Shown one piece after another: positions 12,860 to 43,073 of a stretch of DNA of 64,000 bases. Where the stretch lies: assembly GCA_000004985.1 (NCBI GenBank), contig GG738919.1; one strand, 5' to 3'. This DNA is from Naegleria gruberi. Its lineage: Eukaryota. Numbering within the stretch: the first letter of the stretch is position 1; the number at the start of each line of letters is the position of its first letter. The position numbers and the translations under genes were made by a program. Below the pieces are notes generated by a model. It saw only the letters and a list, made by a program, of their open reading frames with translations, had not been told where the DNA came from and did no database searches.

Positions 12860-14296
12860 TTGAAGAAAAAAAAAATGACCAAAAAGAAATCCAAACAATC
12901 ATCCTCCTCAGCATCATCCTCACAACAACAAAAATCCTCCTCCTCATCATCATCTACTACTAATAATTTATCGGAAGACGTTTTTGATGGAGCTATTGGT
13001 ATTGATTTTGGTAATCATAATTGTACCGTAGCTTATTTTAATATGCAACATTTATTATCAGGCTTTCCTAATTTAAATACAACATCAGCCTTGTCATCGA
13101 CTAGTAAAAAACCATCCTATGTTTCTACAGTGATTCAACCTGTTCAAAATTTAAATACACACGTTGTTATTATTCAAAACGAAGATGGTGCTCATCACAC
13201 TCCATCAGTCATTAAAGTTAATACCATTGTTGAAGGAGAAGGTGATAATGAAACAACACGAGAGGAAATTATTGTTGGTTTTCCACCTCTTCCAGGAGCT
13301 TCAATTCCAGCAGATCAAGTTGTTTATGATTTGAAGGAATTTATTTTGGAATCCGAAGAAAAGATCAAGAAGGGAGAAGAAGAAGAATTAATTTCGTTTA
13401 ATGGAGCTGAATACACACAAGACCATATGGTCAGTATCTTGTTGGGAAAGATGAAGAATATTGCTGAACATTATTTGGGGAAGACTGTAAAGAAGGTTGT
13501 CGTCAGTTGTCCATCAAATTCTCCACACAGTGAAAAGGTGATAAAGAAGGCATGTGAAACTCTTGGAATGAATGTTTTGGCTGTTTTGAAAGAACCTTTG
13601 GCTGCATTGATTGGTTATGGTTTTGATTTACCTCCAGCAACAGTGGAAGAAAAGAAGGAAAAGATTGTTTGTGTTGTTGATGTTGGTGCTTTGGAAACAA
13701 ACATTTCAGTTGTTAGAGTGAATGAAAATGGCATGTTACAAATGATTAAGAGTGAATCTAAACGTCCATTGGGAGGTGAATCACTGGATCAAGTTTTAAT
13801 TCAAATGTGTTTACAAGAATTTAAACGTCTCTATTTCAGAAGTATGAATGAAAGAATGTTCCAAGATGAAGTTGGAAAGAATAGAAAGGTTTTAAGCAAG
13901 CTCAGATTTTCATGTGAAAATGCCAAGAATGTTCTTTCAATGAATCAACAAGCTATGGTTGACGTCGATTCACTCTATGATGGTATGGATTTCTCATTCA
14001 AGCTTACACGTGCCAGATATGAAAGTAGTGCCATGTCAATTTTTGCTAGTATTATTGAACATGCCAAACAAACTGTTGAATCATTGGCTGATCAAGGAAT
14101 TTCTCTTTCCTCAATAGAACACGTTGTTTTAGTGGGTGGTTCCTGTCAAATTCCTAAACTCAAAGATTCTATTCAAACTTTATTCTCACAAGCTAAGATT
14201 TATGATAATGCAGTTGAGGATAGTATTGCCATTGGTTGTGCCATTCAAGCCAATTTAATTAATACTTATCAACATTTAATGAATAAGGATGAATAA
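12860..14296 (+). CDS. Hsp70-family (actin-like ATPase) nucleotide-binding-domain protein that lacks a substrate-binding domain
   Basis: AIGIDFGNHNCTVAY matches the phosphate-1 motif IGIDLGTT. VVDVGALETNISVV matches the phosphate-2 motif DLGGGTFD. VLVGGSCQIPKLK matches the adenosine motif LVGGSTRIP. The protein is only 478 aa and ends after the NBD. Confidence 0.65.
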   Translation: MKKKKMTKKKSKQSSSSASSSQQQKSSSSSSSTTNNLSEDVFDGAIGIDFGNHNCTVAYFNMQHLLSGFPNLNTTSALSSTSKKPSYVSTVIQPVQNLNTHVVIIQNEDGAHHTPSVIKVNTIVEGEGDNETTREEIIVGFPPLPGASIPADQVVYDLKEFILESEEKIKKGEEEELISFNGAEYTQDHMVSILLGKMKNIAEHYLGKTVKKVVVSCPSNSPHSEKVIKKACETLGMNVLAVLKEPLAALIGYGFDLPPATVEEKKEKIVCVVDVGALETNISVVRVNENGMLQMIKSESKRPLGGESLDQVLIQMCLQEFKRLYFRSMNERMFQDEVGKNRKVLSKLRFSCENAKNVLSMNQQAMVDVDSLYDGMDFSFKLTRARYESSAMSIFASIIEHAKQTVESLADQGISLSSIEHVVLVGGSCQIPKLKDSIQTLFSQAKIYDNAVEDSIAIGCAIQANLINTYQHLMNKDE

Positions 14297-14590
14297 ATCT
14301 TTGTAGATTTTGATCATGACTGTTTACAATCCCATAGAAAATATTAAATCATTGAACGTTTGATACCACAATTAATTGATAAAGAAACATTACCTTAAAT
14401 AGTGATTAATCTTTTAATTGTTCGTTGATACAGAATGGAAAGTTAAGTTTGTTGCTTTGATTATACCGTGTTCACGTAATGTTCCAGAGTCCTCAAGTTT
14501 ATATTTGGTGAAGCGGAAGGATACAGAACTTGATCAACCAACATAAACAAAGTCCAGCTCTACAAATTATCATTCGAATCCAACAGTCAA

Positions 14591-15733
14591 TTGAAACATT
14601 TCAAAAAAATGAAATCTCGTACTAATATTGCTATCAGTTATTGCATGTTACTACTATGGAGTGTAATCATGATTGACATGTGCATGTCAGCTGTTCCAAA
14701 CATTAAATCTGGACAAATTCAAACTCTTACCAACAGAATTATTGTTGAAGGAACAAACTTTGGATTACCAACTAATCCAATGGCATTTTGGGATGAAGCA
14801 AGTACACTCAAACAAGATTATCCAATGTCAAATACCATTCCACTTGTCAGATGGGGAGAAGTTCATTCCATGGCATTTTCCAACTTGACAACTGTTCCTA
14901 ACAGAAGTGGCAAGAACGATACTGTTTACTATGGGAAGGGTGGACACAGTTGTCTTCTCCAACCAAAATTCAAGACAGGTTTGATTTATGACAAGCTCTA
15001 TATTTCCTGGTGGTATAGAAATAATCAAGATCCATCTTCAGAAGGTGATTCCAACAAATTTATTCGTATCTGGGATGAATACAGTGGCTATGGCACAAGA
15101 ATTTCATGGACACACATGCATTTGACATGTGCCAATGGAACTTATTGGAATTCTTGGACTAAATATGGAAAAATCAATGCATGGAATCATCATGAATTCT
15201 ATGCCGACTTGGCGAATGACAGAGTTATTGCCACATTAAACGGCAAAACAATGTTCAATGTCACTTGTTCAAAAGATTCAGCACAAGCAGGAAGACCAAT
15301 ATTTGTCAGATTGATTGGATTTGATAATGGAAGTGATCATTACAAGAATATGACAACAGCTCTGGATAGTGTTTTCATTGGAAATTCTGCAAAGAGATTG
15401 GTTCTTGCTCATGTGCCAACTTTTGGTCAGATTGAGTTGAGTGAAGTTGTTCCTATTGATGAGTGGAATTCGAATAGAATTGTTGCTAGATGGATTGAAG
15501 GTGTTTTGGATTGGACTAAACCTATTTATGCCTATGTGGTAGATGAGAATGGAAATTTCAATTCACAAGGTTACTTGTTGAGTGTTGTATCTGAAAATGT
15601 AATTTCCAGTAATGATAATGGAGGCATATTGAGAAATTGTACAAATTGTGAATCATCTGGAAACAATATGCAATCATTTGTTTGTTTGAGAACATTTGCC
15701 ATTCTAATGATTATCATCTTCATTTTTCAATAA
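14591..15733 (+). CDS. Hypothetical secreted, probably GPI-anchored, glycoprotein
   Basis: It has an N-terminal signal-like hydrophobic segment (IAISYCMLLLWSVIMIDMC), many N-glycosylation sequons, and a C-terminal hydrophobic tail (FAILMIIIFIFQ) typical of GPI signals. The start may be the second ATG at 14609. Confidence 0.5.
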   Translation: MKHFKKMKSRTNIAISYCMLLLWSVIMIDMCMSAVPNIKSGQIQTLTNRIIVEGTNFGLPTNPMAFWDEASTLKQDYPMSNTIPLVRWGEVHSMAFSNLTTVPNRSGKNDTVYYGKGGHSCLLQPKFKTGLIYDKLYISWWYRNNQDPSSEGDSNKFIRIWDEYSGYGTRISWTHMHLTCANGTYWNSWTKYGKINAWNHHEFYADLANDRVIATLNGKTMFNVTCSKDSAQAGRPIFVRLIGFDNGSDHYKNMTTALDSVFIGNSAKRLVLAHVPTFGQIELSEVVPIDEWNSNRIVARWIEGVLDWTKPIYAYVVDENGNFNSQGYLLSVVSENVISSNDNGGILRNCTNCESSGNNMQSFVCLRTFAILMIIIFIFQ

Positions 15734-34688: not shown

Positions 34689-36359
34689 ATGTTCGTTAAT
34701 CATTTGATACGTAGAGTTTCATCGTCCTCTTCCTCTGCTGTGTTTGCTTCATCATCATGGAAACGTTTATTGGTGGGCAATAATAGTGGTGGTATGATGA
34801 TGGCAGGCTTATTGAAAAATTATCAAGCACAAGCTTTCATTCAAGCACAAGAATTATCATTCCGAAATTCTGCTAATTATCATTATAATTTTAAAACATT
34901 AAATTCATCATCATCGGATAACAATAATAACAATCAAGAAGGAGAGCAAGAATTAATTCTTAGTGAAAAGGAAAAACCAATTTATGAATTATTAACCATT
35001 GTTTCTAATTCTAATAGAATTGCTCATACAATTTATGATAATGTTCATCCTTTTACTACCTTGTTGGCACAAATTGAAATGATGATCAAAATGATGGAAG
35101 AATTGGCTCAGACGCAGGATCACTTTTTGGGAGATTCAATTCATGAAACTATTAATGCTTCCAAAGAATTGCAAATTACAGTTCTCTGCAGAAGGGCCAG
35201 TTGTGCTATGGTTTGTTGGAGAAGAGCTCAAACAGAGGAGGAAAGAAATCAGTACTATTCAATTATGGAGCAGGATTATGATAAAGCTTTCAGTTTTGGA
35301 ATTGCTAGTGATGAACTTGATTTTGGTTTTGCTAGTTTTTGTAAGGTTGTTAAACAAGATTTGAGACAAGCTCTTCATTATGTCACAAGATCAATTGAAT
35401 CTAATCCAAATGCACCAATCAAGTTTTTGAAACGTGCCGAATTACAATTTGAATTATTCGAATATTTGAAAGAAACTGGTGAAAATATGAGAGTTGAGGA
35501 ACGATCAAATTCTACTGGTGCATCAAATAATAATGGAGGAGCTCCAGAGAGTACTGCCATCACCTCATTCTCAGTCAATCCAGAATGGAGTGATGAAGCA
35601 TTGGATACTCTCAATAATTGTCTGATAGATTGTGAGAGATATATTGAGGATACAATTCAACAAGCTAAGGAGCATAATATTAAGGACTATTACTTGGATT
35701 ATTATGTATATAATTTGAGAGGAAGAGTTTTTGTAGAGTCCTTCCTTTCTGATATGGGAAATACCGAGACATCTAAAATTTTCATTGCCAATGCCGAGAG
35801 AGATTTTACTTTATATATTGATCATTTTAAACCTGAACAAATTGATAATTTACATCCAAATTACATTTCAGAATTGTGCTCAGCTCATGCAAGGAGAGCC
35901 ATGTGCCGATTGCACAACACCAATATCAATCCAGAACATGCCAAAGAGGATATTGAAAGAGCAACCCAATTATTGCAAAAGATTTCAAATGGAAATGATT
36001 ACAGCGACATTACTAACTTTATTGAAGAGCTCAAGGTTCTCACCCATGCCAAATTAATGCACAATAAGGCCACTGAATTGGGAGCTAAGGCTGCTCAATG
36101 TCAACAAACCAATCCAGAACTCGCTTTGGAATATTTGAATGAGGCCATCAAGACTTGTGAAATTTCTCCAATCGCCATGCTGTACATTCAACGTGCTTTC
36201 CTCAACTATGAAACCTTTAGAAAACAAACACAAGCTGGCATGCAAATTAATGATCCACTGAATAGAGAAATTATGGATAGAGTAGCTGAAGATTGCCAGT
36301 CGGCCATCAATAAATGTTTGTTATTTGCCAAATGTTGGAATAAGGCCTGTCGTACATAA
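34689..36359 (+). CDS. Hypothetical alpha-helical (TPR-like?) protein (556 aa) with an S-rich, mitochondrial-presequence-like N-terminus
   Basis: The ORF is clean and has an A-rich start context. Codon usage is coding-like. No domain recognised. Confidence 0.5.
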   Translation: MFVNHLIRRVSSSSSSAVFASSSWKRLLVGNNSGGMMMAGLLKNYQAQAFIQAQELSFRNSANYHYNFKTLNSSSSDNNNNNQEGEQELILSEKEKPIYELLTIVSNSNRIAHTIYDNVHPFTTLLAQIEMMIKMMEELAQTQDHFLGDSIHETINASKELQITVLCRRASCAMVCWRRAQTEEERNQYYSIMEQDYDKAFSFGIASDELDFGFASFCKVVKQDLRQALHYVTRSIESNPNAPIKFLKRAELQFELFEYLKETGENMRVEERSNSTGASNNNGGAPESTAITSFSVNPEWSDEALDTLNNCLIDCERYIEDTIQQAKEHNIKDYYLDYYVYNLRGRVFVESFLSDMGNTETSKIFIANAERDFTLYIDHFKPEQIDNLHPNYISELCSAHARRAMCRLHNTNINPEHAKEDIERATQLLQKISNGNDYSDITNFIEELKVLTHAKLMHNKATELGAKAAQCQQTNPELALEYLNEAIKTCEISPIAMLYIQRAFLNYETFRKQTQAGMQINDPLNREIMDRVAEDCQSAINKCLLFAKCWNKACRT

Positions 36360-36390
36360 TATGTAAATAAAACTTCAGTTAAAACAATAA

Positions 36391-37440
36391 TTAACCTACC
36401 TGTTTACAATGTTCTGCACATTCGGATTCACTATGGCCATCAAATACTCCGAACATGGCATGGAATTTAAATTGAGAAATTGGATGCTGATTAAGGGCTT
36501 CCTCGATATTCTTTACGAAAAAGTGTTCATCTTCCATTGTTGGTCTTTTTCCTTGAGCACTCGCTGATGAATATGATAATTTTCTAGTATGTGTAAATAG
36601 AGATTCAAATTGCCCATTGGACATTTGAGGTAAGGCATGAACGCTAATTGGTCTGTGGAGAGGATTTCTCATCTTGTCTATTTTCAATTCATCTAGAATT
36701 GATTTTTTACTTGGTGTAGTAGCCGAAGGTTTAGAAGGGGATGAAGATGATGAAGCAGAAACATTTCTTGTTGGAAATCTTCCTAGGGTATTATTTGCAT
36801 TACTCGTTTGAATACCTCTTCTCGGTTCTATTGAGGTTGAATTATTTCTATAGGCAGGTGATGTAGTAACATCTTTAAAAGCAGCCGTATTGGGCGAACT
36901 ATTGAGTGATGTTGGAGTATTTCCACCACCCTTTGGAGGAGTTGAAGGAATCATGGAGAGAGTTTGTCCTGATCTGAAAACTTTGGGAGAACCCACATCA
37001 AGTTTCCTATTCTTATTACCAGAAGGTGTTCTCGAAACATTGATGAGAGACATTGTGTTAGGGTAACTCGAGTTTTTAGTTGATGATTGTGGTGATGTAT
37101 CATGAGAGAGAACACTTCCAAATGATGCAGTTGTACTACTACCATTATTATTTGAAGCACTACCTCCTGAGGAAGGTGATACAATACTGTTGTTTCCACT
37201 ATTGCCTCCAGAACCACCACTAGAACCAAAACCAATATTTTGATTATAAACATTTACATGTAATGATCTTAGTGGTTTGGAATGGCTCGGACTAGCAACG
37301 AAATTCTTTGATGAGGAAGGTGAGGTTAAGTGTTGTTGAGAGGAGTGATGATGGAGTGAATGATTGGAATTATTGTTGGGAGATGTTGCTGAATTGTTGC
37401 CGCCTCCTCCATTTGGTGATATCGATAAACTCCCTCTCAT
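36391..37440 (-). CDS. Ser/Asn/Gly-rich protein segment ending in the first two PP2C phosphatase motifs. It ends at a splice donor and looks like a first exon or truncated gene.
   Basis: The C-terminus reads RPTMEDEHF...AMFGVFDGHSESECAEHCKQ, which matches PP2C motifs 1-2 (R..MEDxH ... FFGVFDGHGG). It is followed immediately by GTAGGT, with the donor at 36398-36399. No downstream exon encoding the rest of the PP2C fold is visible. Confidence 0.4.
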   Translation of the reverse strand: MRGSLSISPNGGGGNNSATSPNNNSNHSLHHHSSQQHLTSPSSSKNFVASPSHSKPLRSLHVNVYNQNIGFGSSGGSGGNSGNNSIVSPSSGGSASNNNGSSTTASFGSVLSHDTSPQSSTKNSSYPNTMSLINVSRTPSGNKNRKLDVGSPKVFRSGQTLSMIPSTPPKGGGNTPTSLNSSPNTAAFKDVTTSPAYRNNSTSIEPRRGIQTSNANNTLGRFPTRNVSASSSSSPSKPSATTPSKKSILDELKIDKMRNPLHRPISVHALPQMSNGQFESLFTHTRKLSYSSASAQGKRPTMEDEHFFVKNIEEALNQHPISQFKFHAMFGVFDGHSESECAEHCKQVG

Positions 37441-38614
37441 TTTTTTTTATTGAATTAATGAAATTTTTAGTGAAGTATTTCGCGCCAAATGAAAATTTAC
37501 TGCTTCTATTCTTGTAAAAATGACTTGTTTGGAAATGGTGTGGCCTGTTATGGAAGTTGAGTTTTAAATTTAAATATTTTAATTTTAATTAATTTTAAAT
37601 TGAAGATCAGTGACTATGAAGGTAAGTATCTTTGAAGTTTGTGGGATGAAATAAGCGGTGCAGTAATTACTAAGAGCTAGATTTACAAAGCTATCTTGAA
37701 GGTTGTGGCTATGGAATCATAATTGACTATGTATTCGTGGTATATTGTCAATGAAGCTTTTACTTCCCTTGTACATATGTTATATGTCGTGGTGAACTTT
37801 CATCAAATTCGAATATGAGTTTCTGATGAAATTCTGCAATGAGGACAATTATAAATATTCCAATGGATAAACATTGCCAATGATTCCAAGTCAGCATGTT
37901 TCTCGCAGTCTTATATCTAATCTTTCTATTGCAACGAATCTTTTAGTTCTTCTCTATTGAACCATTTTCTGTAACGAACTTGAACTTGGATGCATTTATA
38001 TCAATTAGTGAATATAATAAGGATTATAATCCACCAATGCAACATCTCAATAAGTCTTTTGAGCATTTCTAAACTAAAAGGTAGAAAACAAACAGAGTTG
38101 GGAAATGTTACCAACAACGAACTCTAAGGAAACTTTAAGGATTTCAACACCTTCAACAAGACTGTCAATCAATCAGTGAATACACAATGATTAAAAAGCG
38201 AATTGCCAAGCTTGTAACTTTTTTCCCACTTCCATAAAATAATACTTGGACTATTTGGGAAGTGGCGTTCTTGAGTTTTCGTATCAACCTTAATCATCCA
38301 AACTTCCCGAATTGTTTAATTGTTCACACACCAATCGACGTCGCATTAATGTTTTATAATATTATCAGAAAAAAACGAAAAAAAACGATAAGGTTTGTTT
38401 TCGCTTGATGCAATATACCGTACGATCCGCCTTAATATCTTTTCACTTTGAATAGTCATCTTGAATCAGTACAGGTCCACATTATTGCACACTATCATTA
38501 TCAATCAACACAAAGAATGAATAATAACAGGTCGAATATCGGTGTAAATCACACAAGATGATTCAAAAGAGACAAAGTTTAAACATCAACTGACTTGTCA
38601 ATTCCTGAAAGTCC

Positions 38615-38664
38615 NNNNNNNNNNNNNNNNNNNNNNNNNNNNNNNNNNNNNNNNNNNNNNNNNN
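38615..38664. other. Assembly gap (50 N)
   Basis: Run of n characters in the sequence. Confidence 0.95.
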
Positions 38665-41321: not shown

Positions 41322-43073
41322 ATGATTTCTTCCTCATCTCGTCATCACAATGATGATGAAAGTGTTAACAAACAACAATATTCGGAACGAGAAGAATTTA
41401 ATGGTAATCAACAAGAGGATAATATAATTAATAATCAACAAGAGAATCAAATAATAGGAAATAATAATGATGATGATAGAGACGATGATGAACCAATTAG
41501 AATATTAACAACAACTAATAATACAAAATTGCAACAATTACGAGCCTATGTATGGAAAATAGCCAAATTATCATTTGATATGCTTCCTATTGGTTTTTTA
41601 AGCTTTGGAGGTCCAATGGCTCATACTTCACTGCTACAGGATCGATTTGTTATTAATCATCAATGGTTAACTCCAGAGGAGTTTTCAGAATTGTTTTCCA
41701 TTTGTCAATCATTGCCTGGACCATTAAGTACCAAATTGGTGATTGCTATTGGAACATTGAGAGGAGGATATGTTGGAGCTTTGGTGAGCTTTCTGATATT
41801 TTCATTACCAAGTGGATTGGTGATGGGAATTGTTGGAGTTTTGATGAAAGATGTGGACACGGATATTCAATTTCCTTATTGGATAAAGATTGCTTTGAGT
41901 GGATTTTCGTGTGCTGCCGTGTCCATCATTATGCATGCTGGTTATTTGATGGCCAAGAAATTGACAGTTGGTTCCAAGTTGTATCAGAGCTTAATGATTG
42001 GAGCATTTATATTATTTTTGATATATCAAACTTGGTGGATGTTATTATCGATCATGATTTTTGGAGGACTTTCGAATTGGTTTGGGGAATATGGAGGCAA
42101 ATATTTCAAAAACAAGTATGAAAATTTCACAAATTCATATGAACAAAATGCAGTAGGAAATAAGGGAAAGTTTGAAAGCATTATCAAATTTTTGAAATTT
42201 TCCAAATATTTCATGTTGGAATTATTTACAGATTCAAAGGTGAAAATTAAAAAGATTTTCAACAAGGGAATATTCAAAAGATCTACCAATTATGAGCAAG
42301 TTGATGAGGCAACACCCTCTCCTGCTGCTGAGACACCCTCCTCCACTACTGCTAGTCAAATCATTTCCAACAGTGTTGACAAATCCAACGATAACGAAAC
42401 AAGCAATACCATTGAAAAGAGCAAGGATATTTCACTTAAACCAATCATGGGAATAATTTTTATTACCATCTTCATCATGCTACTACTAAGCTTATTCATT
42501 TCAAGACAATTTATCGAGTGGACTCCACTCTATCTTGCAGAGGGATTTTTCAGAATTAGCAGTTTGATATTTGGTGGAGGGCATGTCATTCTTCCTGTTA
42601 TTTTGAATGAGTTTTCCGTAAATCCTAATAATTCCACCTTGCCAACCATTTCAGAATCGCAATTTTTGAATGGATTTGCCCTACAGAATGCCCTACCAGG
42701 TCCATTATTCAATTTATCAGCATTTGTTGGTGGAGTGATTGGAGGTCCACTCGGTGCATTCATTTCCTGGTTTTGCTCCTTCCTACCGCCATTCCTTTTC
42801 ATGTGGACTGCCATTCCTCTTTGGAACAAGTACAGAGATAATAAGAGTGTAAAAATAATTCTGGCTGGAGTGAATGCCTCAAGTGTTGGATTTGTCTTTG
42901 TAGCAGGTTATGTATTGTGGTTGTCATGTGTGGAAACTCAATTCGTGCCAGCTGCCTGTACAGTCGTGTTGAGTGTTTTGTTACAATCTGTGATTGATGC
43001 ACCTGCACCACTGGTTATTCTCTCGGGAGGTCTCATTCGACTAGCTCTACAACCTCTAGCACAAAATTCTTAG
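41322..43073 (+). CDS. CHR-family chromate ion transporter (ChrA-like), bidomain, 583 aa
   Basis: The first half has LSFGGPMAHTSLLQDRFVINHQWLTPEEFSELFSICQSLPGPLSTKLVIAIG. The second half has FGGGHVILPV...FLNGFALQNALPGPLFNLSAFVGG. These are the duplicated CHR signatures. A roughly 200-aa hydrophilic linker sits between the halves. Confidence 0.75.
   Translation: MISSSSRHHNDDESVNKQQYSEREEFNGNQQEDNIINNQQENQIIGNNNDDDRDDDEPIRILTTTNNTKLQQLRAYVWKIAKLSFDMLPIGFLSFGGPMAHTSLLQDRFVINHQWLTPEEFSELFSICQSLPGPLSTKLVIAIGTLRGGYVGALVSFLIFSLPSGLVMGIVGVLMKDVDTDIQFPYWIKIALSGFSCAAVSIIMHAGYLMAKKLTVGSKLYQSLMIGAFILFLIYQTWWMLLSIMIFGGLSNWFGEYGGKYFKNKYENFTNSYEQNAVGNKGKFESIIKFLKFSKYFMLELFTDSKVKIKKIFNKGIFKRSTNYEQVDEATPSPAAETPSSTTASQIISNSVDKSNDNETSNTIEKSKDISLKPIMGIIFITIFIMLLLSLFISRQFIEWTPLYLAEGFFRISSLIFGGGHVILPVILNEFSVNPNNSTLPTISESQFLNGFALQNALPGPLFNLSAFVGGVIGGPLGAFISWFCSFLPPFLFMWTAIPLWNKYRDNKSVKIILAGVNASSVGFVFVAGYVLWLSCVETQFVPAACTVVLSVLLQSVIDAPAPLVILSGGLIRLALQPLAQNS

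What the first reader, a model, noticed from the sequence alone, without database searches (positions are those of the whole stretch)
36391..37440. PP2C phosphatase N-terminus that ends at a splice donor with no catalytic exons downstream
The minus-strand ORF ends with RPTMEDEHF...FGVFDGHSESECAEHCKQ, the unmistakable first two PP2C motifs (MED.H and FGVFDGHGG). A GTAGGT donor follows immediately at 36398-36399. The remaining roughly 200 aa of a PP2C fold (motifs such as GSTA, DHKP, GGxLxVSRAxGD, the DN metal ligands) are not encoded anywhere downstream on that strand. The next 1.7 kb is occupied by a well-formed opposite-strand gene (34689..36359). After that comes a 426-bp divergent promoter and the RCC1-BTB gene. 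The locus is therefore either a truncated PP2C pseudogene or gene fragment left by a rearrangement, an assembly join, or an unusual arrangement with a gene nested inside a long intron. Nested genes would be atypical for a genome whose other introns here are 45-185 nt.
Basis: partly seen in the sequence, partly recalled or inferred. Interest (0 to 1): 0.6.

Follow-up and report, generated by a model that had tools for sequence, protein, structure and literature searches.

The report
Truncated PP2C gene at a breakpoint
This is the front quarter of a conserved Naegleria phosphatase gene, cut off in mid-exon and joined tail-to-tail to a neighbouring gene that has also lost its end, so it is a broken gene left by a small deletion or rearrangement (or an assembly error) and not an unusual gene arrangement.

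Summary
The window is Naegleria gruberi, not a dictyostelid. The 349-codon minus-strand ORF (36391-37440) is real. It is the 5' part of the ortholog of a 603-604 aa PP2C gene of N. lovaniensis and N. fowleri. The GTAGGT donor is real and conserved. Homology to a close relative (metagenome contig L003) and to the orthologs stops at 36307. At that same point (36308) the opposite-strand 556-aa gene (NAEGRDRAFT_53801) also stops resembling its orthologs, which carry about 65 more conserved residues. Its last 17 codons are antisense PP2C sequence. One junction, with 2 nt of microhomology, therefore joins two convergent genes that are both 3'-truncated. No other PP2C sequence and no missing tail occur anywhere in the 64 kb. 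No intact N. gruberi ortholog appeared in the protein search. The nested-gene reading is rejected. A recent real deletion or rearrangement is most likely (about 0.65). An assembly or cloning artefact cannot be excluded (about 0.25). The fragment lacks three quarters of the catalytic domain and cannot be an active phosphatase. Interest is low.

The parts
36400..37440 (-). PP2C gene, exon 1. It has 347 codons: a Ser/Asn/Gly/Thr-rich N-terminal region followed by PP2C motifs 1 and 2 (RPTMEDEH, FGVFDGHSE).
   Evidence: ORF. It is 53% identical to N. lovaniensis P0007 over query residues 17-347, and 97% identical to P0006. The start (MR...) matches the P0007 start.
36347..36399 (-). Intron 1: 53 nt, phase 0, GTAGGT...ACAG.
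   Evidence: The sequence is shown. The position is conserved in L003 (GTATGT...ATAG) and in N. lovaniensis (GTAGGT, roughly 100 nt). ORF calls in L003 and L006 also run into this intron.
36309..36346 (-). Remnant of PP2C exon 2. It encodes ALFQHLANNKHLL, the first 13 codons, and the last of these reaches the junction.
   Evidence: The DNA alignment to L003 continues to 36307. The protein aligns to L003 VLFQHLANNKHFL and to P0007 TLFQILAKNRCFL. The Pfam match extends to profile position 67.
36306..36308 (.). Junction between the two truncated genes. TC at 36307-36308 can be assigned to either parent (2-nt microhomology).
   Evidence: The window reads GCCA[TC]AATAAATG. The 556-gene orthologs read GCCATC|GAAATTGATCC. 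The antisense PP2C of L003 reads TCACTC|AAAAAATG. Protein homology of the 556-aa gene ends at 36308.
34689..36308 (+). Conserved body of the TPR-like gene NAEGRDRAFT_53801. The annotated protein P0001 starts at an internal Met.
   Evidence: It is 100% identical to P0001 / XP_002670087.1. It is 43-48% identical to the N. lovaniensis, N. fowleri and environmental orthologs.
36309..36359 (+). Non-homologous 17-codon end of the 556-aa ORF (NKCLLFAKCWNKACRT*). It is read from the antisense of PP2C exon 2 and intron 1.
   Evidence: The orthologs instead continue with about 65 conserved residues, IDPSxxTTEARVVLAEYYKNVTGEKDKA...DD. That tail is not found anywhere in the window.
36206..36308 (-). If intron 1 is spliced, the PP2C reading frame runs on through antisense 556-gene sequence to a TAG. 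This gives a 393-aa product, and this stretch has no PP2C homology.
   Evidence: Conceptual splice and translation. The alignment shows no similarity after ...KHLL.

Best explanation
The locus holds the 5' quarter of a conserved Naegleria PP2C gene: exon 1, intron 1 and 13 codons of exon 2. The gene is the ortholog of N. lovaniensis C9374_012331 and N. fowleri FDP41_005613. It is joined tail-to-tail at 36306-36308 to a TPR-like gene (NAEGRDRAFT_53801) that has lost its last ~65 codons.

Shown: the base-level junction, the truncation of both genes, the conserved intron, and the absence of the missing parts from the 64 kb.

Inferred: a single recent double-strand-break repair event in the N. gruberi NEG-M lineage created the junction using 2 nt of microhomology. 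The simplest form is a deletion of roughly 1.3-1.6 kb spanning the 3' ends of two convergent neighbours. A rearrangement breakpoint is the alternative form.

Inferred consequences: the PP2C remnant lacks Pfam profile positions 68-255, which hold the later metal-binding aspartates, so it cannot dephosphorylate anything. It is an unprocessed, truncated pseudogene that is too young to have acquired stop codons. The neighbouring gene now ends in 17 codons read from antisense PP2C.
For: - Orthology: exhaustive HMMER finds P0007 (603 aa, 53% identity over query 17-347) and P0006 (97% identity). P0007 and P0014 carry the full PF00481 domain, profile 3-255.
- Break point: the DNA alignment with the close relative L003 is collinear from 36989 to 36307 and then stops. 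L003 continues with exon 2 (SDIERAFVEG.), a second intron and the start of exon 3.
- The 556-aa gene loses homology at 36308. The conserved tail is present in N. lovaniensis, in N. fowleri (in another frame) and in an environmental relative.
- The conserved partner of the 556 gene in three relatives is a convergent HSP70-like gene. In N. gruberi that gene lies at 12860-14296. The region has therefore been rearranged exactly at the 3' end of the 556 gene.
- Junction sequence shows a 2-nt microhomology. There is no repeat at the junction.
- The DGHCG motif, which every ortholog retrieved here for this PP2C keeps, reads DGHSE only in the window. This fits relaxed constraint.
- No N. gruberi protein is among the hits to full-length P0007.
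- Recency: dN/dS against L003 is 0.08 with dS 0.17, and the ORF is intact.
Against: - No independent N. gruberi reads or assembly could be examined, so a chimeric join or a clone deletion is not excluded.
- The PP2C piece (36309-38614) is only 2.3 kb and is bounded on its other side by a 50-N scaffold gap. That is a typical place for assembly trouble.
- The low dN/dS and the intact ORF would also be expected if the real gene is intact and only the assembly is wrong.
- The arrangement of the two genes immediately before the event is unknown. In N. lovaniensis they lie 20 kb apart in divergent orientation, so a simple deletion requires earlier, unobserved rearrangements.
- No relic of the 556 tail lies next to the HSP70-like gene.
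Confidence: 0.65

Rival explanations
1. The junction is an assembly or cloning artefact. Under this reading both genes are intact in the real N. gruberi genome. The junction would come from a chimeric read or clone, or from a deletion in a bacterial clone, in the 2010 Sanger draft.
For: - The segment 36309-38614 is short and ends at a 50-N gap.
- The truncated ORF is intact and shows strong purifying selection (dN/dS 0.08), as expected for a live gene.
- Both genes stop at a single point, which is also what a chimeric join would look like.
Against: - No repeat at the junction could mislead an assembler.
- No N. gruberi protein matches the missing 215-aa catalytic part of P0007. A displaced 3' half would probably have been annotated.
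- The window copy alone carries G->E and C->S in the conserved DGHCG motif.
- The ancestral 556/HSP70 adjacency is independently broken within the same contig.
Confidence: 0.25
2. The truncated product is a retained, functional non-catalytic protein. Its long Ser/Thr-rich N-terminal region plus the first PP2C strands would act as a regulatory or decoy protein. It would be 349 aa unspliced or 393 aa spliced.
For: The ORF is intact over 349 codons in DNA of about 35% G+C. dN/dS against L003 is 0.08 over 184 codons. The start codon and N-terminal region are conserved with the orthologs.
Against: - The low dN/dS is explained equally well by a very recent truncation. Most of the dS of 0.17 predates the event or lies on the L003 branch.
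- A quarter of a PP2C beta-sandwich is unlikely to fold.
- The 46 residues after the junction are antisense sequence of another gene.
- No such product is found in the 15-billion-protein collection.
Confidence: 0.07
3. The PP2C gene is intact and hosts the 556-aa gene inside a long intron, with the later exons further downstream.
For: Only the presence of a genuine splice donor at 36399.
Against: - The intron after that donor is 53 nt, has a normal acceptor and is conserved in position.
- Homology breaks inside exon 2, not at an exon boundary.
- The 'nested' gene is truncated at the same base.
- No PP2C segment exists elsewhere in the 64 kb in any frame.
- The orthologous genes are compact, 1985 bp in N. 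lovaniensis.
Confidence: 0.01

Closest known systems
N. lovaniensis C9374_012331 (P0007, 603 aa) and N. fowleri FDP41_005613 (P0014, 604 aa), PPM-type phosphatase domain proteins
   Same: The long low-complexity N-terminal region aligns at 53% identity over 330 aa. The RKLSYSSASAQGKRP(T/S)MEDEHFFVKNIEEAL and FHAMFGVFDGH blocks are nearly identical. There is a phase-0 intron with a GTAGGT donor at the same codon, and exon 2 starts the same way (xLFQxLAxN).
   Different: The orthologs continue for about 215 more residues through the whole catalytic domain, PF00481 profile 3-255. The window copy stops at profile position 67 and reads DGHSE where they read DGHCG.
Metagenome contig L003 (ENA ERZ12289978 NODE_43301), a close relative of N. 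gruberi
   Same: 97% amino-acid identity with dS 0.17. It is collinear from window 36989 to 36307, including intron 1.
   Different: It continues beyond the window's break with the rest of exon 2, a second intron and the start of exon 3. It also keeps DGHCG.
Unprocessed (truncated) pseudogenes created by genomic deletion or rearrangement (general class; own knowledge)
   Same: The locus is a partial copy of a gene at its native promoter. An intron is retained. It is cut at an arbitrary point inside an exon and has a microhomology junction.
   Different: There is no stop codon or frameshift yet in the retained part. The same junction also truncates the convergent neighbour and gives that gene a new 17-codon end.
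Catalytically dead PP2C-like proteins such as TAB1 (own knowledge, not tested here)
   Same: PP2C-derived sequence that cannot catalyse dephosphorylation.
   Different: Known pseudophosphatases keep the whole PP2C fold and have lost only catalytic residues. Here three quarters of the fold is missing.

Membership tests
PP2C / PPM phosphatase (Pfam PF00481) | Motif 1, acidic metal-binding residues (RxxMED) | tested here: met
   RPTMEDEH at about 36546. It aligns to PPM1A RVEMEDAH and to the orthologs.
PP2C / PPM phosphatase (Pfam PF00481) | Motif 2, DGHGG (Asp and Gly metal ligands, His, conserved second Gly) | tested here: inconclusive
   D, G and H are present (FGVFDGH), but the window reads DGHSE. 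Every ortholog retrieved here for this PP2C reads DGHCG, and more distant homologs read DGHGG. The conserved Gly is replaced by Glu.
PP2C / PPM phosphatase (Pfam PF00481) | Domain match above Pfam's gathering score (20.3 bits) | tested here: not met
   14.0 bits for the ORF and 19.7 bits for the spliced product, covering profile 3-67 of 255 only.
PP2C / PPM phosphatase (Pfam PF00481) | Later catalytic motifs (DHKP, SRAxGD, DGxWD, DN metal ligands) | tested here: not met
   The regex and tblastn scans of all six frames of the 64 kb find none linked to this locus. All are present in P0007, P0014 and P0009.
PP2C / PPM phosphatase (Pfam PF00481) | Descent from a bona fide PP2C gene (orthology) | tested here: met
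   53% identity over 330 aa to P0007. The intron position is shared.
Truncated unprocessed pseudogene | Loss of an essential part of the coding sequence relative to orthologs, with the break not at an exon boundary | tested here: met
   Homology ends at 36307, inside exon 2.
Truncated unprocessed pseudogene | Signs of relaxed constraint in the retained part (stop codons, frameshifts, raised dN/dS) | tested here: inconclusive
   There are no stops or frameshifts and dN/dS is 0.08. Two of the six non-synonymous differences hit the conserved DGHCG motif in the window copy.
Truncated unprocessed pseudogene | The junction exists in the organism's DNA and not only in the assembly | not testable with these tools
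   No N. gruberi reads or second assembly are available. Exact look-ups were negative.
Gene nested in an intron of a host gene | Host-gene exons on both sides of the nested gene | tested here: not met
   There are no PP2C exons beyond 36307 in the window. The intron after the donor is 53 nt.

The most novel reading that the evidence does not exclude
The junction is real, and the truncated product has been kept as a non-catalytic regulator or decoy derived from a PP2C. That product consists of the conserved Ser/Thr-rich N-terminal region plus the first PP2C motifs, ending in antisense-derived residues. The neighbouring TPR-like gene would meanwhile have gained a new C-terminus from antisense PP2C sequence. 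This would be a small natural example of one deletion remodelling two genes at once.
Probability: 0.07. Interest if true: 0.4.

Novelty: new member of a known kind. Interest (0 to 1): 0.2.

Why it matters
The main value is for annotation and quality control.

- N. gruberi NEG-M appears to lack a working copy of a PP2C that is conserved in N. lovaniensis, N. fowleri and environmental relatives.
- The annotated protein NAEGRDRAFT_53801 ends in 17 residues that are antisense PP2C sequence rather than its conserved TPR-like tail.
- If the junction is real, it is a base-resolved example of one microhomology-mediated event disabling two convergent genes in a laboratory strain.
- If it is an artefact, it marks a mis-join in the reference assembly.

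Neither outcome changes what is known about PP2C phosphatases.

Tried and rejected
- The word-index protein search with the last 104 aa found nothing. This was a false negative. The exhaustive search later found P0006, P0007 and other clear relatives that share many words with the query. One search is not used as evidence.
- Exact look-ups found nothing on record for the 556-aa ORF, P0001, the 349-aa ORF and the spliced 393-aa product. No independent N. gruberi DNA was therefore available.
- I looked for a reciprocal junction. I tested whether the ORF next to the HSP70-like gene (14591-15733, 380 aa) is the ortholog of the gene that follows PP2C in N. lovaniensis (388 aa). It shows no similarity.
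- I looked for a relic of the missing 556 tail beside the HSP70-like gene (14250-14650). None was found.
- I looked for repeats at the junction that could explain a mis-assembly. None was found.
- Simple single-inversion models relating the window to N. lovaniensis do not reproduce the observed orientation. Several rearrangements separate the species, so the arrangement just before the event cannot be reconstructed.
- Chance resemblance to PP2C is rejected by the orthologs.
- The dictyostelid origin is rejected.

Full report
**Identity of the window**

The plus-strand ORF 34689-36359 is 100% identical to the Naegleria gruberi predicted protein XP_002670087.1 / NAEGRDRAFT_53801 (P0001). Its orthologs are in N. 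lovaniensis, N. fowleri and an environmental Naegleria-like organism. Its expectations about introns and gene density should be read against Naegleria instead.

**The observation**

- The minus-strand ORF 36391-37440 (349 aa) exists and ends ...GKRPTMEDEHFFVKNIEEALNQHPISQFKFHAMFGVFDGHSESECAEHCKQ, then VG and a stop. GTAGGT directly follows the CAG that ends at 36400.
- Pfam gives only a sub-threshold PP2C match: 14 bits against a 20.3-bit cut-off, profile positions 3-54 of 255.
A six-frame motif scan finds no DHKP, SRAxGD, DGxWD or DN motif that could belong to the gene.

**Orthologs**

- A word-index search with the last 104 residues found nothing. This was a false negative.
- The exhaustive HMMER search with the whole ORF found P0007, 603 aa, with 53% identity over query 17-347. 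P0007 is N. lovaniensis C9374_012331.
- It also found P0006 (186 aa, 97% identity), P0008, P0009 and shorter fragments.
- P0007, its N. fowleri counterpart P0014 (78% identical to P0007) and P0009 all carry a complete PF00481 domain. In P0007 this is residues 331-590, profile 3-255.
- The window ORF is thus the 5' part of a conserved Naegleria PP2C gene. That gene has a long low-complexity N-terminal region.

**What follows the donor**

- P0006 lies on an 833-bp metagenome contig, L003.
- L003 aligns with the window's minus strand continuously from 36989 to 36307. The alignment runs through the donor, across an intron and into a second exon.
- The window intron is 36399-36347: 53 nt, phase 0, GTAGGT...ACAG.
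- The same intron position, with a GTAGGT donor, is present in N. lovaniensis. ORF calls in L003 and L006 also run into it. The donor is therefore genuine.
- Exon 2 begins at 36346 and encodes ALFQHLANNKHLL. This matches L003 VLFQHLANNKHFL and N. lovaniensis TLFQILAKNRCFL.
- Including these codons raises the Pfam match to profile 3-67 and 19.7 bits.
- After ...KHLL the window reads MADWQSSATLS..., which resembles nothing. L003 goes on with SDIERAFVEG., a second intron and the start of exon 3. PP2C homology therefore ends inside exon 2, at 36307.

**The opposite-strand gene is also truncated**

- The 556-aa ORF aligns with its orthologs only up to ...AEDCQSAI, which ends at 36308.
- N. lovaniensis P0002 and the environmental P0003 continue for about 65 more residues: IDPSSKTTEARVVLAEYYKNVTGEKDKAVEQYEIVLKNYLQENDQEMIKTIEQALDD.... 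These residues give weak TPR hits.
- N. fowleri encodes the same tail in another frame. The annotated protein P0004 leaves the tail's frame at an A-run, which looks like a homopolymer error.
- The tail is not found anywhere in the window.
- The last 17 codons of the N. gruberi ORF (NKCLLFAKCWNKACRT*) are the reverse complement of PP2C exon 2 and intron 1.

**The junction**

- Using the orthologs as proxies for the parental sequences, the 556 side reads GCCATC|GAAATTGAT and the antisense PP2C side reads TCACTC|AAAAAATG.
- The window reads GCCA[TC]AATAAATG, so there are 2 nt of microhomology at 36307-36308.
- A single junction therefore joins two convergent genes that have both lost their 3' ends.
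- No repeat occurs at or near the junction.

**Synteny**

- In N. lovaniensis, N. fowleri and the environmental relative, the 556-gene ortholog is convergent with an HSP70-like gene only 17-200 bp away.
- In N. gruberi the HSP70-like gene lies at 12860-14296, with an unrelated ORF after it. No relic of the 556 tail lies beside it.
- In N. lovaniensis all the genes concerned lie on one contig. The order is HSP70-like, 556..., RCC1-BTB, two genes, PP2C, three genes, then a 907-aa gene and an 880-aa gene.
- In the window the order is HSP70-like, the 380-aa ORF, the 907 ortholog, the 880 ortholog..., RCC1-BTB, 556 (inverted), PP2C (inverted).
- Several rearrangements therefore separate the species, and one of them falls exactly at the 3' end of the 556 gene. 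The arrangement just before the truncating event cannot be reconstructed.

**Age and constraint**

- Against L003, 184 codons show 19 synonymous and 6 non-synonymous differences (dS 0.17, dN 0.014, dN/dS 0.08).
- The retained part has therefore been under purifying selection for nearly all of the time since the two lineages split, and it has no stop or frameshift.
- Two of the six replacements change the DGHCG motif, which every ortholog retrieved here for this PP2C keeps, to DGHSE in the window copy only. From general knowledge of the family, the Gly replaced by Glu is close to invariant.
- This pattern fits a very recent truncation followed by the first neutral changes. It would also fit an intact gene misrepresented by the assembly, apart from the odd motif change.

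**Real or artefact**

The following points favour a real event:
- There is no repeat at the junction.
- The junction shows microhomology.
- The 556/HSP70 adjacency is independently broken within the same contig.
- The motif has degenerated in the window copy only.
- No N. gruberi protein is among the hits to full-length P0007. A displaced catalytic half would be expected to appear there.

The following points favour an artefact:
- The PP2C-bearing segment 36309-38614 is only 2.3 kb and ends at a 50-N scaffold gap.
- The ORF looks alive.

No independent N. gruberi sequence was reachable. I put about 0.65 on a real deletion or rearrangement, 0.25 on an artefact, 0.07 on a retained functional truncated protein and 0.01 on a nested gene. 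Naegleria is described as mainly a heterozygous diploid (PMC9928731), so the assembly could also represent a deletion allele.

**Function**

Whatever its origin, the sequence as assembled encodes at most 349 aa (unspliced) or 393 aa (spliced). It contains only Pfam profile positions 3-67. The later catalytic motifs present in the orthologs, including the metal-binding Asp residues (DGLWD, DNITV in P0007), are absent. By established knowledge of the PPM fold it cannot be an active phosphatase.

**Verdict**

This is a truncated gene remnant at a base-resolved junction. It is a new example of a well-known kind of feature, or else an assembly error. Its value is for annotation of N. gruberi. The PP2C remnant appears not to be annotated: neither predicted product is in the 15-billion-protein collection. 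The annotated C-terminus of NAEGRDRAFT_53801 is not homologous to its orthologs.

Noticed in passing
L002:11290-11530 (N. fowleri VFQX01000080.1): The annotated N. fowleri protein FDP41_010225 (P0004) ends ...CKKPSKLIHLLGQLKPELCWQSITKM. The conserved tail AIEIDPSPRTTEARVVLAEYYKNVTGEKDKAAEQYEIVLKNYL... is intact in another frame. The shift sits at an A-run (GCAAAAAGCC), which suggests a homopolymer error in that assembly or annotation.
   Followed up: partly
window 38615-38664: This 50-N scaffold gap is the only one in the window. It lies 1.17 kb upstream of the PP2C start codon. The stretch 37441-38614 has no ORF of 100 aa or more and no similarity to the genes upstream of PP2C in N. lovaniensis.
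   Followed up: partly
L003:1-18: The metagenome contig begins with GATGTGTATAAGAGACAG, which looks like a leftover Nextera transposase adapter (own knowledge). The window alignment starts at base 19.
   Followed up: no
P0014 (N. fowleri FDP41_005613) versus P0007: The N. fowleri gene model lacks the exon-2 start (TLFQILAKNRCFLQ) that is present in N. lovaniensis, L003 and the window. This is probably a splice-site choice in the annotation.
   Followed up: no
P0005 (N. fowleri FDP41_010240, 319 aa): N. fowleri has a second, partial copy of the 556-gene family on another contig. It diverges from P0004 near its C-terminus.
   Followed up: no
window 41322-43073 (+): This 583-aa ORF has two chromate transporter (PF02417) domains, a family best known from bacteria (own knowledge). 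Its origin was not examined.
   Followed up: no
(search tools): The word-index homology search reported no candidate for a 104-aa query. That query has 97%-identical and 50-80%-identical relatives in the protein collection that tool is described as searching. A negative result from that tool on a short query should not be trusted.
   Followed up: yes
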